Virus record (IMG/VR): IMGVR_UViG_3300044638_005715
Location: 39,398 to 103,397 of that record
Strand: one strand, 5' to 3'
Origin: a virus
Taxonomy: Duplodnaviria > Heunggongvirae > Uroviricota > Caudoviricetes
Length of the DNA stretch: 64,000 bases
The translations under genes and the position numbers were made by a program. This document shows positions 39,765 through 44,485 of this stretch, in pieces. Numbering within the stretch: position 1 is the stretch's first letter; each line of letters starts with the position of its first letter. Below the pieces are notes generated by a model. That model was not told the origin of the DNA. It was given only the letters and a program-made list of their open reading frames with translations, and ran no database searches.

Positions 39765-41228
39765 ATGAAAGAAATTAAGTGGGCCCCAAACCATATGCAC
39801 TCTAGTTATAGTTTGTTAGATGGTTTTGCTAAACCAGCAGACATTGCTAAAAGATGTAAAGAATATGGATATAAATCGGCGGCTATAACAGACCATGGAA
39901 ATATAGCTGGGTGTGTTCAACATTTTACAGCCTGTAAAAAAGAGGGCATTAAACCAATATTGGGTTGTGAATTCTATTTTAGTAAGGACGCGGGCCTTAG
40001 AGATTCTACCAATAAAGAGTTGAGCCACGTTGTAATATTATCTAAAAATTTGAATGGATGGAATGAATTGATAGGGTGTGTTTCTGAAAGTAACTTGCCG
40101 GAAAATTTTTACTTTAAGCCGCGTATTGATTATACTATCATGAAAAAATTTCTTGGTAACAATAATCACATATGTATTACGGGACACCCAGGAACAGAAC
40201 TATCAAATGCCTTATTTGAAGATATGAAATTCTATAGATCAAAATCTGTAGAAGATGCTAGAAAATTTATAAAGCCAAACTGGAAAGAATGTGCCTTAGA
40301 AGTGATAGAAAAACACCTAGAAATATTTGGTGATAATCTCTATATTGAAATTCAGCTTATTGATAAAGATAATTTACCAGCTAGTCTTGTAATAGCCGAA
40401 TGTTTAAGAGAGATTGTTGCCGAGTCTAATGGTAAATTAAAGCCAATAGCTACTGCTGATAGTCACTATGTAGATAGAAAAGATGCTGAATCACAAAGGA
40501 TTTTGTTAGCATCGGCCCTGAATAAAACAATTCCTGGTATAATGAATGATTTAAGAAATAATATTGATGTTCCTCTAGGAACATTCTTTATTTCAGATAA
40601 TTATCATATACCTACGCTGGGTGAAATGATAGAAAATCACACCGTGGAAGAATTATTAAATGCATATTTAGCTGCTGAATCTTGCGAAGAGTATGATATT
40701 ACGAACGCACCGCTTCTACCAAAATTTAATGTTGATGATGAATTTACATATCTTTCTGAATTATGTAATAAGGGATGGAAAAATAAGATTGAGCATTTAT
40801 TGACGGATGAAAATCGCCACATATATAAGGAAAGACTAGATAGGGAATTAGGAGTCATTCAAGAGGCGGGACTTTCTGGTTATTTCCTTATTGTTCAAGA
40901 CATTATGGAATTTGTTAGGTCTAAAAATTGGATTCCTACAACACCGGGCAGAGGATGTTTTTTACCAGATACTAATGTAAAAATGTCAAATGGATCATAT
41001 TGTCCAATATCAATGATTGAGTCAGGAGATAAAGTAATAGATTGTTACAAAAATGAACAAGAAGTATATGCAACATTAGAATATGACATTGATGAGGATA
41101 TTATAGAAATTGAATTTATTAATAATAAAATAGTGAGATGTACAAAAGATCATAAATTTTTAACAAAAAATCGTGGATGGGTACAAGCTCAATATCTTAA
41201 TGATGAAGATGATATTGTTGAGGTTTAA
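39765..41228 (+). CDS. dnaE: DNA polymerase III alpha (DnaE) N-terminal fragment (PHP domain) fused to split-intein N half
   Basis: PHP motif [10 protein letters not shown]...ITDHGN. Extein ends ...PTTPGRG, where DnaE continues GSAAGS. The following 90 aa starting [10 protein letters not shown] resemble the N-terminal blocks of a split intein (Int-N), then a stop. Confidence 0.75.
   Translation: [487 protein letters not shown]
40956..41225 (+). mobile_element. split intein N-terminal half (Int-N, 90 aa)
   Basis: Cys1, CFLPDTNV...G (block A), TKDHKF (block B, TxxH). Confidence 0.65.
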
Positions 41229-41310
41229 AAATAAAGAACCTCGACATGGAAATTTGTGAGTATAAATATATGTATATATATGCTTCACAAACTTTCGAAA
41301 TGGATAAATA

Positions 41311-42159: not shown

Positions 42160-42235
42160 ATACAGTGGAAAGGTATATGATCTATCTGTTGAAAATACAA
42201 GTTGTTATAATGTAGAGGGTTTAGGAGTTCATAAT
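42131..42235 (+). mobile_element. split intein C-terminal half (Int-C)
   Basis: Ends HN followed by a +1 Ser. Confidence 0.65.
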
Positions 42236-44485
42236 TCTGCTGCTGGATGTCTAATATCATATTTAATCGGAATTACTAATATTGATCCATTAAAGCACGA
42301 TTTGATTTTCGAGCGATTTTATTCGGCGGCAAGAAAAGGTAGTTTGCCAGATATTGATCTTGATGTGCCCGCAGAGCATAGAGAGGATGTGATCGAATAC
42401 ATTAAGCAAAAGTATGGAAATGAAAATGTATCACAAATGGTCACATTTAATAGTTTGATGGGTAGATCTGCATTAAAAGAGGTACTAAAGGTTTATAATG
42501 CTGTATCATTTATAGAAATGAATGAAATGACTAAGGATATACCAAATGAAGCTTCTATTGCTGACGACCTACAAGAAAGTGGCGAAACATCTATCATTAT
42601 GTGGGCCCTGAAAAATCGTGCCTCTAAACTTGAGAAGTGGTGTAAAATAGATGAGCAGGGTAATTTAACTGGGGATTGTGCCGATTATTTTAGAATGGCA
42701 ATTAATATAGAGGGCACAAAAAAATCACAAGCTAAACATGCGGCCGGTATTATTATTTCGGCTTCTCCATTAAAAAATGTTTGCCCAATGGTAAGGGATA
42801 AAGAGGGGCTCCCAGTAGCTGGTTTTGAAATGAATGATTTGGAACTATTGGGCCATGTTAAGTTCGATATATTGGGTGTAGATATTCTAAGTAAAATTAT
42901 TAAAATATGTGAAAGATGCAATATTAGTATTGATGAAATGCATAAATTTAATGATAAAAAAACATGGGACCTTATTAGTAGTGGTGATGTAATTGGCATA
43001 TTCCAATTAGAAAAGCAAAAGCGTTGGGCAAAGAAACTCAAGCCGCAAACTATTGAGCATCTTTCTGCCCTTATTGCTATTATTAGGCCGGGAGTTGCTG
43101 ATGTTATTGTCGATGGCAAATCTATGACCGAACACTATATTGATAGAAAAAATGGTGATGAAGATATTACATATGAATTTCCATGTCTAGAGCCCATACT
43201 AGAAAATACATATGGTATTATGATTTATCAAGAGCAGGCATTAAGAATAGCATCGGAAATCGCAGGTTTTAATTTAAAAGAGGCAGATGCACTTAGAAAA
43301 GCAATCGGCAAGAAATTAGTTGATAAAATGGCCGAGTTGAAAACAAAATTTATTGATGGATGTGTTAATAATGAAAAGCTAAACCTAGAAGACTCCACAA
43401 GATTATTCGAGTGGATTGAGAAGTCTCAAAAATATCTGTTTAATGCAAGCCATAGTTTTTCTTATGCTTATAATGCTTATTATTCGGCATTTTGTAAGGC
43501 AAATAATATATATGATAGGTATCCAGTATTTTATGAGATTTATTTAGAGCATAGCAAAAGAAAGCAAGATTCACTTCATGAAATTAGGTCTATGGTAAAT
43601 AATGCAAAATTAAATGGATTTGAAGTTAGGGCTCCTGACTTATGTAATTTTAATTTAAGCTTTACACTTTCAGAAGATTTATCTACGATTTATTTTGGTG
43701 TATCGAGTGTTAAGGATGTTGGAGAAAAAGAATGTAGTAAAATACTAAATATATTTAATGAATTAGAAGATTCATGCAATATGAATTGGATGCAAGTTTT
43801 AACACAAATATGTGATAAGATTAATAAAAAAGCAGTTGAAGCTCTCATATCTGTAGGGGCCCTTAATGGTCCAAAAAATAAGGTTTCAAGATTAAAAATG
43901 CTTTATGAGTATGGTTTTTGGAGAGAACTAACGAAAAATGAACAGAAATTCATTAAAGAAAATATGATAAATGGATCTTTAAAAGATAATGTAAAGAATT
44001 TAATAAATAATGCAAAAATACAAGCTAAAAGATTATCTGCTGTAACATCTATTTATAAATCTCTTGAATCGCCACCTTATGGTATATCTGATAATATAGA
44101 AATTATATCTCAATTAGAATCTAAATATTTAGGAATATCACTTTCATGTGCAAAGAGTGATTTTTTAATACCGGAAGTAAATACTACATGTAGAGAGGTG
44201 GCATTAAATTCTTGTAGGAATTATGATATTAGTATAGGTGTTGAAATTAAATCATATCATGAGCACATTATAAACAATAAGAATAGTAAAAATCATGGAT
44301 TAACGATGGCATTTCTATCATGTGAAGATAACACTGGTGTTTTGGATAATATAATATTATTTCCTGAAGAATATAATCGTTTTAAAGATTTGCTTTTTGA
44401 TGGAAATACAATTATAATTGTTGGTGACGCTTCAAAAAATCGCGATGGCTCACTTATTGTAAAAAATATGATATCTACTATATAG
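42131..44485 (+). CDS. dnaE: split-intein C half (35 aa) fused to the DnaE C-terminal fragment
   Basis: [35 protein letters not shown] parallels the Npu DnaE Int-C MIKIATRKYLGKQNVYDIGVERDHNFALKNGFIASN. The +1 Ser begins [18 protein letters not shown], the DnaE motif. Confidence 0.75.
   Translation: [784 protein letters not shown]

What the first reader, a model, noticed from the sequence alone, without database searches (positions are those of the whole stretch)
39765..44485. DnaE (Pol III alpha) fractured into two ORFs by a split intein, with a free-standing endonuclease gene between the halves
ORF 39765-41228 encodes the PHP domain and the first 397 aa of DnaE. It ends with ...PTTPGRG followed by a 90-aa Int-N (Cys1, [10 protein letters not shown]...) and a stop codon. 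ORF 42131-44485 begins with a 35-aa Int-C whose pattern parallels the Npu DnaE Int-C and ends in HN. Its +1 Ser resumes exactly at the conserved DnaE motif [18 protein letters not shown]. A functional replicative polymerase of about 1146 aa would therefore need protein trans-splicing. The 82-nt gap and the gene 41311-42159 (PD-(D/E)xK nuclease with zinc finger) lie between the halves. This is the layout expected if a homing-endonuclease intein was broken into a split intein plus a free-standing homing-endonuclease gene. The split site (GRG|S, near the PHP/palm junction) differs from the classical cyanobacterial DnaE split site.
Basis: partly seen in the sequence, partly recalled or inferred. 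Interest (0 to 1): 0.8.

Follow-up and report, generated by a model that had tools for sequence, protein, structure and literature searches.

The report
Phage DnaE split by intein
A phage replicative DNA polymerase gene is encoded in two pieces that most likely have to be stitched together at the protein level by a split intein, with a selfish nuclease gene sitting between the pieces; this is a clean, complete example of the "fractured gene" layout first described in 2009, not a new kind of system.

Summary
ORF 39765-41228 is DnaE residues 1-397 plus a 90-aa Int-N. ORF 41311-42159 is a zinc-ribbon + PD-(D/E)xK nuclease. ORF 42131-44485 is a 35-aa Int-C plus the remaining 749 aa of DnaE. DnaE profiles run without a gap across the junction.

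The joined intein halves match only inteins in the PDB (NrdJ-1, 2e-10) and keep Cys1, TxxH, HN and Ser+1.

It is not an assembly artefact. The three ORFs are in three different frames. The locus is identical in four other independently assembled contigs, and a fifth carries genes of the same lengths. The layout recurs in relatives whose nuclease is only 43-58% identical.

The nearest DnaE relatives (74% identity) are unsplit and read ...PGRG-SAAG... across the empty site. Bacillus phage G and Methanobacterium virus PhiF1 carry contiguous inteins at the same site.

Dassa et al. 2009 described this arrangement, including three DnaE loci, the upstream hairpin with TATAAATA, and the nuclease/Int-C overlap.

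The one fresh element is the nuclease. It is a classical TnsA-like PD-(D/E)xK enzyme, not GIY-YIG or Vsr-like/EDxHD, and it has no relatives in the sequenced phage records searched.

The parts
39765..40955 (+). DnaE N-extein, 397 aa: PHP domain and the start of the palm, ending ...PTTPGRG
   Evidence: Pfam PHP 1.5e-35 and DNA_pol3_alpha positions 2-65; NCBIfam PRK05673 positions 4-365. It is 74% identical and colinear with the intact P0067.
40956..41228 (+). Int-N, 90 aa (Cys1 ... block B T63-K-D-H66 ... DDIVEV) plus the TAA stop at 41226-41228
   Evidence: Intein model hits. The PDB profile search returns only inteins. Cys1 and TxxH are invariant in 5 loci. Net charge is -10.
41216..41246 (+). 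Hairpin 1: 11-bp stem whose 5' arm is the last Int-N codons and the first base of the stop codon, and whose 3' arm is non-coding
   Evidence: Fold (the whole gap has z=-5.2). The GAGGT...AACCTC arms recur in L005, L007 and L012. There is no T-run, so it is not a canonical terminator.
41248..41296 (+). Hairpin 2 in the nuclease 5' UTR, carrying TATAAATA (41261-41268) in its stem
   Evidence: It matches the hairpin plus T4-type late-promoter element reported upstream of fractured-gene endonucleases (PMC2677866).
41311..42159 (+). Free-standing endonuclease gene, 282 aa: N-terminal Cys4 zinc ribbon, helical middle region, C-terminal PD-(D/E)xK nuclease (S169/E172, P208-D209, E219-x-K221)
42131..42235 (+). 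Int-C, 35 aa (MKIKTKK...VYDLSVEN...GVHN). Its first 29 nt overlap the end of the nuclease gene in another frame
   Evidence: H124-N125 are invariant. The first 15 residues carry +6 charge. The published overlap range is 6-69 bp.
42236..44485 (+). DnaE C-extein, 749 aa, starting with Ser+1 ([14 protein letters not shown]...): rest of the palm with PDIDLD and KFDILG, then fingers, HhH and OB
   Evidence: Pfam DNA_pol3_alpha 66-260, DNA_pol3_finger, HHH_6; PRK05673 positions 366-1056. Catalytic motifs are present.

Best explanation
This is a 'fractured gene'. A 1,280-bp mobile cassette (40956-42235) sits inside the phage dnaE gene at the conserved palm motif GRG|S. [quoted passage not shown]

Shown:
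- The two DnaE fragments are separate ORFs in different frames.
- They are colinear with an intact DnaE.
- Both exteins are under equal purifying selection.
- They end and begin with intein halves that keep all the catalytic residues.

Inferred:
- After translation, the acidic Int-N (net -10) and the basic N-terminus of Int-C (+6) associate.
- Cys1 performs the N-S acyl shift, Ser+1 attacks, and Asn125 cyclises. The halves are ligated into a 1146-aa polymerase reading ...[12 protein letters not shown]..., exactly as in intein-less relatives.
- The nuclease is expressed from its own signals (hairpin with a TATAAATA late-promoter-like element).
- The downstream DnaE half is translationally coupled to the nuclease through the 29-nt overlap.
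- The nuclease cuts intein-less dnaE alleles of co-infecting related phages near the GRG|S site. Repair then copies the whole cassette in (homing). The resident allele is protected because the cassette interrupts the target.
For: - Colinearity with DnaE profiles across the junction.
- The joined intein profile hits 25 PDB chains, all inteins or HINT domains: NrdJ-1 2e-10, Npu DnaE 2e-6.
- Cys1, T63xxH66, H124-N125 and Ser+1 are invariant in five loci that share only 29-45% N-extein identity.
- Charge complementarity is conserved.
- The locus is identical in four other assemblies. The three ORFs are in three frames.
- pN is 0.18/0.17 against pS 0.79/0.81 for the N- and C-exteins versus the intact homologue. 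PHP, PDIDLD and KFDILG motifs are intact.
- Empty-site alleles P0067, P0068 and P0070 (61-74% identity) read PGRGSAAG. Downstream synteny is the same. The spliced gene aligns over 3453 nt at 70.4%, with the cassette mapping to a single point.
- Contiguous inteins occupy the same site in Bacillus phage G gp329 and in PhiF1 DnaE.
- The nuclease has invariant E/PD/ExK and Cys4 residues and a confident restriction-endonuclease-like fold. It occupies the same slot in 8 of 8 distinct contexts.
- The hairpin, TATAAATA and the overlap match the published class.
Against: - No experiment. Splicing, nuclease activity and the target site are all inferred.
- Individual intein model hits for the single sequence are below the curated cut-offs.
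- The single-sequence structure prediction of the joined intein failed (pLDDT 30).
- No co-conversion tract is visible next to the cassette. The flanks look like the empty-site relative (and direct reading). Recent homing is therefore not demonstrated, and the direction (gain here or precise loss in relatives) is open.
- TATAAATA is not enriched in this AT-rich window (18 found against 29 expected), so its presence in the hairpin could be chance.
- The closest other nuclease is only 58% identical, so no recent donor has been sampled.
Confidence: 0.85

Rival explanations
1. Artefact: one continuous intein-containing dnaE gene that appears as three ORFs because of a sequencing or assembly error at the stop codon.
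For: None found.
Against: - Three ORFs in three frames. The N-half frame has 54 stops before the C-extein, and a second stop lies two codons after the first.
- The locus is identical in four other independently assembled contigs from separate samples, with 0-1 (synonymous) differences.
- The same three-ORF layout is seen in relatives whose nuclease is only 43-58% identical.
Confidence: 0.01
2. The halves never splice. Either dnaE is a decaying pseudogene, or the intein halves serve only as a non-covalent docking module that assembles a two-chain polymerase. The latter would resemble the intein-less split NrdA of phage Aeh1.
For: - Intein-less breaks of DnaE (palm|fingers) are very common in related phages, so a multi-chain DnaE is clearly viable in this group.
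- An Aeh1-type assembly precedent exists (PMC3045599, listed).
Against: - Every splicing residue (Cys1, TxxH, HN, Ser+1) is invariant across loci whose exteins have diverged to 29-45% identity.
- Both exteins are under equally strong purifying selection.
- The insertion interrupts a strictly conserved palm motif. A retained 125-aa domain there would probably obstruct the active site (inference).
Confidence: 0.07
3. The split intein works, but the middle gene is not an active homing endonuclease. It could be a domesticated or regulatory nuclease, or a vertically inherited passenger retained because its 3' end supplies the start and translational coupling for the downstream DnaE half.
For: - The nuclease has diverged about as much as the C-extein (48-54% against 47-68%), which is compatible with long vertical co-inheritance.
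- No co-conversion tract is seen.
- The conserved C-terminal tail ...ARKxHHENK coincides with the overlapping Int-C start, a dual-coding constraint.
Against: - Catalytic E/PD/ExK and the zinc-ribbon cysteines are invariant over the whole family, and also in relatives at 25-33% identity.
- The cassette is present or absent among close DnaE relatives.
- Intein parts are more conserved than the N-extein.
- The gene sits in the same slot in 8/8 contexts.
Confidence: 0.15

Closest known systems
Fractured genes of Dassa, London, Stoddard, Schueler-Furman & Pietrokovski 2009 (PMC2677866): 26-27 metagenomic loci including DnaE-1, -2 and -3; the NrdJ-1 intein comes from this set
   Same: - Same strand order: N-extein+Int-N, short non-coding gap with a hairpin (often TATAAATA), free-standing endonuclease, overlap with Int-C+C-extein.
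- Phage origin and a DNA-replication host gene.
- Int-N 88-105 aa and Int-C 33-54 aa (here 90 and 35).
- NrdJ-1 is the best PDB match.
   Different: - The endonucleases there were GIY-YIG or Vsr-like. Here it is a classical PD-(D/E)xK enzyme with a zinc ribbon.
- The gap is 82 nt against 27-51 nt.
- I could not tell whether GRG|S is one of their three DnaE sites, because the supplement is not held.
Cyanobacterial split DnaE intein (Ssp/Npu DnaE)
   Same: Same host protein, natural trans-splicing split intein, acidic Int-N and basic Int-C, similar half lengths. There is a detectable profile match (Npu 2e-6).
   Different: - Different insertion point: finger domain there (PMC4760082), palm GRG|S here.
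- The halves are at distant loci there and adjacent here.
- There is no endonuclease gene there.
- The +1 residue is Cys there (PMC2677866) and Ser here.
Contiguous inteins at the same DnaE site in Bacillus phage G gp329 and Methanobacterium virus PhiF1 ORF57
   Same: Identical insertion point GPGRG|C...HN|S(A/S)GG. Similar terminal blocks: CFVPGQTV / CLSPDTMV at the start and YDLTVEG...AVHN at the end.
   Different: These are single-ORF inteins with an internal insert of about 150-250 aa. They are not split and have no free-standing gene inside. Phage G has a GIY-YIG gene further downstream, between DnaE pieces.
I-Bth0305I / EDxHD ('Vsr-like') homing endonucleases (PMC3239194)
   Different: - The composite EDxHD motif is absent. 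This family has E...PD...ExK with no conserved catalytic His.
- The N-terminus is a zinc ribbon rather than NUMOD2/HTH.
- There is no sequence-level match to 3r3p.
TnsA N-terminal nuclease domain (Tn7) and phage T7 endonuclease I-type PD-(D/E)xK nucleases
   Different: No transposon context. Added zinc ribbon and helical region. The window protein scores 24.5 bits, below the Pfam cut-off of 26.5.
Salmonella phage S16 uvsW locus gp114 / gp114.1 / gp115 (cultured T4-like phage)
   Same: Helicase split at DE|CH by a split intein whose Int-N is 38% identical to this one. The 291-aa middle ORF overlaps both neighbours. It shows weak TnsA_N and NUMOD3 hits and aligns to this nuclease family (hhalign E=3e-4).
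   Different: Different host gene. The middle protein is only marginally related (probability 39%) and has E-I-R instead of E-x-K. It is annotated only as a hypothetical protein.

Membership tests
Fractured gene (Dassa et al. 2009) | A conserved enzyme gene is broken in two on one strand. The N part is followed in frame by Int-N, and the C part is preceded in frame by Int-C. | tested here: met
Fractured gene (Dassa et al. 2009) | A free-standing endonuclease gene lies between the intein halves. | tested here: met
   ORF 41311-42159 with its own start and stop in a separate frame. Nuclease fold and motifs confirmed.
Fractured gene (Dassa et al. 2009) | A short non-coding region with an RNA hairpin (often TATAAATA) lies upstream of the endonuclease. 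| tested here: met
   82-nt gap with two hairpins (z=-5.2) and TATAAATA at 41261. The gap is longer than the published 27-51 nt.
Fractured gene (Dassa et al. 2009) | The endonuclease 3' end overlaps the Int-C ORF start by 6-69 bp. | tested here: met
   29 bp here and 17-35 bp in four relatives.
Class 1 intein (HINT splicing domain) | Cys/Ser1, block B TxxH, C-terminal HN, +1 Cys/Ser/Thr, and significant similarity to HINT domains. | tested here: met
   C1, T63-K-D-H66, H124-N125 and S+1 are invariant in 5 loci. All 25 PDB profile hits are inteins or HINT. Single-sequence Pfam and TIGRFAM hits are below the cut-offs.
Class 1 intein (HINT splicing domain) | Actual protein (trans-)splicing. | not testable with these tools
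   Needs co-expression and mass spectrometry.
Cyanobacterial DnaE split intein family | Insertion at the cyanobacterial DnaE site (finger domain), with the halves at separate loci. | tested here: not met
   The site is palm position 65/66 of the Pfam model. The cyanobacterial site is in the fingers. The halves here are adjacent.
EDxHD / Vsr-like homing endonucleases | Composite catalytic motif E-D-x-H-D, including a general-base His. | tested here: not met
   The family's invariant residues are S169, E172, P208-D209 and E219-x-K221. There is no conserved His or Asp at the corresponding positions. Motif definition taken from PMC3239194.
PD-(D/E)xK (TnsA-N-like) nucleases | Restriction-endonuclease-like fold with E ... 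(P)D ... (D/E)xK. | tested here: met
PD-(D/E)xK (TnsA-N-like) nucleases | Pfam PF08722 membership at the gathering threshold. | tested here: inconclusive
   24.5 bits against a cut-off of 26.5 for the window protein. 20/28 relatives hit at E<=0.01.
Homing endonuclease (functional definition) | Present/absent polymorphism at one conserved site among homologous genes. | tested here: met
   Empty sites in P0067, P0068 and P0070. The cassette is in the same slot in 8/8 nuclease contexts.
Homing endonuclease (functional definition) | Site-specific cleavage of the cassette-less allele, followed by copying of the cassette. | not testable with these tools
   No co-conversion tract was detectable. A cleavage assay is needed.

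The most novel reading that the evidence does not exclude
The middle gene represents a large homing-endonuclease lineage that has not been characterised as such. It combines a zinc ribbon, a helical region and a classical TnsA-like PD-(D/E)xK nuclease. The lineage has 2,127 representatives at 50% clustering and is absent from the phage records searched (tblastn, E<=1e-3). Its distant members appear specialised in residing inside inteins. Single-ORF fusions exist: Int-N+nuclease (P0375) and nuclease+Int-C (P0335). These would be live intermediates of how endonuclease domains enter or leave inteins and turn contiguous inteins into split ones.
Probability: 0.4. Interest if true: 0.55.

Novelty: new member of a known kind. 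Interest (0 to 1): 0.35.

Why it matters
Practical value: this is a complete, naturally split intein with a Ser+1 junction (GRG|SAAG), compact 90/35-aa halves and strong charge complementarity. It is related to the fast-splicing NrdJ-1 group and could be a candidate tool for protein ligation.

Biological value: the locus comes with three things that the original 2009 read-level data lacked for DnaE.
- Empty-site alleles in close relatives.
- Contiguous alleles at the same site in cultured viruses.
- A nuclease family different from the two described for fractured genes.

Together these make the published gene-breaking model (intein, then endonuclease invasion, then split intein) testable on one defined site. 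They also point to an uncharacterised PD-(D/E)xK homing-endonuclease lineage. None of this changes the concept.

Tried and rejected
- DNA search of the 6-kb region against 50,697 phage records found only a 166-nt chance-level hit.
- Two viral-contig scans, with the N-half and with the nuclease, found no relatives.
- tblastn of the nuclease against the phage collection found no match.
- AF2 on the joined Int-N+Int-C without an alignment gave pLDDT 30 and was discarded. It used the last structure job, so no intein fold search was possible.
- The Dassa 2009 supplement, which holds the sequences and sites of DnaE-1/2/3, is not held. Identity of the insertion site with a published locus therefore could not be checked.
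- Looked for a co-conversion tract next to the cassette. The flanks resemble the empty-site relative, not the cassette-bearing loci.
- dN/dS could not be computed because synonymous sites are saturated. Only pN/pS is reported.
- Sigma-70 promoter and intrinsic terminator scans showed no enrichment and no terminator.
- TATAAATA is not enriched window-wide.
- Rfam and tRNA scans of the window found nothing.
- Literature searches for a TnsA-like endonuclease with inteins, and for a split intein in uvsW, found nothing relevant.
- Considered and rejected: sequencing-error ORF split, dnaE pseudogene, membership of the nuclease in the EDxHD family.

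
Full report
OBSERVATION.
- The 487-aa product of 39765-41228 carries a PHP domain (1.5e-35) and the first 64 positions of the Pfam palm model. 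It aligns to positions 4-365 of the 1146-position NCBIfam DnaE model PRK05673.
- The 784-aa product of 42131-44485 aligns from its residue 36 to positions 366-1056 of the same model, and to palm positions 66-260.
- Nothing of DnaE is missing or duplicated.
- The 90 residues after ...PTTPGRG and the 35 residues before SAAGCL... are extra.
- The gap is 82 nt. The middle ORF overlaps the third by 29 nt. The ligated product would be 1146 aa.

THE EXTRA RESIDUES ARE A SPLIT INTEIN. On its own the sequence gives weak hits to intein models: Pfam Intein_splicing 8e-5 and 0.036, and TIGR01445 5.8e-4, all below the curated cut-offs. Joined head to tail, the two pieces find the NrdJ-1 intein in the PDB at 4e-8. 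A profile of the joined pieces from five loci finds 25 PDB chains, every one an intein or HINT domain: NrdJ-1 2e-10, a bacterial intein-like domain 7e-9, Npu DnaE 2e-6, and the RecA, DnaB and Ssp DnaE inteins. Cys1, the block-B T63-x-x-H66, the terminal H124-N125 and the +1 Ser are invariant in all five loci. Int-N is acidic (net -10) and the first 15 residues of Int-C carry +6, in every locus. This is the charge complementarity described for natural split inteins (PMC2677866). The break point (90 | 35) is the position where endonuclease domains sit in contiguous inteins.

NOT AN ARTEFACT, NOT A PSEUDOGENE.
- The three ORFs use three different frames. The N-half frame meets a second stop two codons after the first, and 54 stops in all before the C-extein.
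- The locus was assembled independently in four other contigs from separate samples (two sequencing runs and two JGI metagenomes).
- Against the intact homologue in L014, the N- and C-exteins show pN 0.18 and 0.17 with pS 0.79 and 0.81. Both are equally constrained.
- The PHP metal-binding motifs, PDIDLD and KFDILG are intact.

THE MIDDLE GENE. The 282-aa protein has about 66 full-length relatives at 43-58% identity, all from metagenomes. None is found in 50,697 deposited phage records.
- The alignment shows near-invariant C29/C32 and invariant C61/C64 (a zinc ribbon), a conserved helical stretch (QNKPEQK..NA.GVSKSW), and an invariant nuclease signature: S169, E172, P208-D209, E219-I-K221-G.
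- An AlphaFold model built on that alignment is confident (pLDDT 89).
- Pfam Tn7_TnsA-like_N and Phage_endo_I are hit by 20 and 18 of 28 members, and DUF7487 by 12.
- It is therefore a classical PD-(D/E)xK enzyme.
- It lacks the composite EDxHD motif that defines the 'Vsr-like' homing endonucleases of fractured genes (PMC3239194). So it is not a member of that family, although it shares the fold.
- An exhaustive profile search finds 2,127 cluster representatives at E<=1e-3 and 212 at E<=1e-10.
- Relatives at 25-33% identity keep all the motifs.
- Two of them are single ORFs that fuse the nuclease to an intein half at this same DnaE site. P0375 is DnaE-N + Int-N + nuclease. P0335 is nuclease + Int-C + SAAGSLV.... 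These were seen only as predicted proteins and were not verified at DNA level.

REGULATORY ANATOMY. The 82-nt gap folds far better than shuffles (z = -5.2).
- Hairpin 1 (41216-41246) pairs the last Int-N codons with non-coding sequence and puts the stop codon at the loop. Its arms (GAGGT...AACCTC) recur in L005, L007 and L012, though not in L011. No T-run follows, so it is not a canonical terminator.
- Hairpin 2 (41248-41296) carries TATAAATA at 41261.
- The Int-C start codon is embedded in the conserved nuclease tail ...HHENK (cat cATG AAa). The overlap is 17-35 nt in four relatives.
- All of this matches what Dassa et al. report: hairpins in 15 of 16 endonuclease 5' UTRs, ten of them with TATAAATA, and overlaps of 6-69 bp.
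- TATAAATA is not enriched in the window overall, so I treat its role as plausible, not shown.

COMPARATIVE EVIDENCE.
(a) The nuclease sits in the same slot of dnaE in all eight distinct contexts examined.
(b) Across five loci, identity is 29-45% for the N-extein, 47-68% for the first 225 aa of the C-extein, 52-73% for Int-N, 51-69% for Int-C, and 48-54% for the nuclease. The cassette is at least as conserved as its host gene.
(c) The nearest relatives of the spliced DnaE are unsplit and intein-less: P0067 (1148 aa, 74%), P0068 (1144 aa, 74%) and P0070 (61%). They read ...[20 protein letters not shown]....
- The P0067 locus shares the downstream SSB plus three glycosyltransferase genes.
- The spliced window gene aligns to it over 3453 nt at 70.4%.
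- The 1,280-bp cassette maps to a single point, between GGCAGAGGA and the Ser codon. That codon is TCT here and AGT there.
(d) The same site holds contiguous inteins in Bacillus phage G gp329 (VGPGRG|CFVPGQ...AVHN|SAAGSLV) and in Methanobacterium virus PhiF1 DnaE (VGPGRG|CLSPDT...IVHN|SSGGSLL).
(e) A profile search with the joined intein found no protein covering both halves, so this intein lineage seems to exist only in split form. More distant Int-N relatives sit on RNR and GyrA fragments.
(f) I saw no co-conversion tract. Whether the window lineage gained the cassette or its close relatives lost it remains open.

MECHANISM.
Shown: gene structure, colinearity, conserved catalytic residues, conserved charge pattern, polymorphic presence of the cassette, and nuclease fold and motifs.
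Inferred:
- Electrostatic docking of the halves.
- Class-1 trans-splicing with Cys1 and Ser+1, producing a 1146-aa Pol III alpha-type polymerase.
- Separate, possibly late, expression of the nuclease.
- Translational coupling of the C-half to the nuclease.
- Homing of the whole cassette into empty dnaE alleles of co-infecting relatives.
From general knowledge of C-family polymerases, the GRG|S motif is the nucleotidyltransferase Gly-Ser motif at the active site. That is the kind of conserved site inteins favour. This was not tested here.

COMPARISON WITH WHAT IS KNOWN. This is the 'fractured gene' arrangement of Dassa et al. 2009 (PMC2677866).
- That paper lists three DnaE loci with split inteins and free-standing endonucleases. 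[quoted passage not shown]
- The cyanobacterial split DnaE intein lies in the finger domain, and its halves are unlinked.
- Cultured phages show the same architecture with related inteins. In Salmonella phage S16, uvsW is arranged as gp114 / gp114.1 / gp115 and split at DE|CH. Its 'hypothetical' middle ORF is a marginal relative of this nuclease. In Campylobacter phage CPt10, nrdA is split.

VERDICT.
- Novelty: new member of a known kind.
- The nuclease family, the empty and contiguous alleles at one defined site, and the apparent in-frame fusions are the only elements that go beyond the 2009 description.
- Interest: 0.35.

Noticed in passing
window 21743-23674 (insert about 22034-22990): The NrdB-like ribonucleotide reductase small subunit (643 aa) carries a contiguous intein of about 319 aa...FAESE|CFDNQTEVL...SIQGN|CRHERAYSH. 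It has a LAGLIDADG-like stretch and ends in GN rather than HN. Pfam reports Ribonuc_red_sm plus Intein_splicing.
   Followed up: partly
window 35494-37479 (insert about 36073-37023): The PD-(D/E)XK (PDDEXK_1, Cas4/RecB-like) protein is 661 aa, against 327-363 aa in related loci. It contains an insert of about 317 aa with a LAGLIDADG_3 domain. The insert begins with Ala (IDWK|ALPVET...) and ends ...IPTHN|TGQ, inside the D-x-K|TG motif. This looks like an Ala1-type intein. The L011 homologue is also long, at 650 aa.
   Followed up: partly
L005, L007, L011, L012, L016, L017, L018; proteins P0116-P0186: In related phages DnaE is broken again between palm (..DILGV..) and fingers (..FQLE..), with no intein visible at that break. 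One to four genes lie between the pieces, always including an RNase_T (epsilon-like exonuclease) gene. N-pieces of about 640 aa of this type are very numerous in marine data. In the window, the RNase_T gene lies upstream (38415-39122) and this part of DnaE is continuous.
   Followed up: partly
P0088, P0077, P0104; L005 9062-11527; L007 9174-10769; L018 5785-7588: DnaE of this phage group is an intein hot spot.
- A LAGLIDADG intein in the PHP domain (ILGC|), in P0088.
- An HNH intein at IRPG|C, in P0077 and L007.
- An intein at SFN[KR]|C that is contiguous with HNH in L005 but split in L007 and P0104.
- L018 has an extra free-standing LAGLIDADG gene between an 89-aa and a 268-aa DnaE piece.
The window is intein-free at all of these sites.
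   Followed up: partly
proteins P0375 (1009 aa) and P0335 (415 aa): Distant relatives of the nuclease appear fused in frame to an intein half at the same DnaE site. P0375 is DnaE-N + Int-N + nuclease in one ORF. P0335 is nuclease + Int-C + SAAGSLV... in one ORF. They may be intermediates between free-standing and embedded endonucleases, or gene-calling or sequencing artefacts. DNA was not inspected.
   Followed up: partly
L019 (Salmonella phage S16, NC_020416.1 104626-107352): uvsW of a cultured T4-like phage is a fractured gene. gp114 ends with an Int-N (MMNDE|CFDGDTL...DDIVEWK). gp115 starts with an Int-C (...GALAHN|CHLATGKS). The overlapping 291-aa gp114.1 is annotated as hypothetical. It has weak TnsA_N and NUMOD3 hits and a CxxC...CxxC / SxxE / SDF / EIR pattern. 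No paper linking a split intein to UvsW was found in the library.
   Followed up: partly
window 42110-42159 and alignment A1 columns 263-273: The C-terminal tail of the nuclease (...YKKARKxHHENK) is among its most conserved parts. It coincides with the overlapping start of the Int-C ORF (catcATGAAAaTaAAA = M-K-I/L-K). This is apparently a dual-coding constraint that preserves the start of the downstream DnaE half.
   Followed up: partly
window 42236-42238 vs L014 empty site: The +1 Ser codon is TCT in the cassette-bearing allele and AGT in the empty allele. These codons are not interconvertible by a single synonymous step. The first 15 nt after the junction are less conserved (67%) than the 15 nt before it (93%). 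This could relate to target-site immunity, or it could be chance.
   Followed up: no
window 56000-64000: GC skew changes sign at about 56 kb, where gene orientation switches from + to -. The three large minus-strand ORFs (57629-59128, 59848-62385, 62382-63908) have no Pfam hit at E<=1e-3.
   Followed up: no
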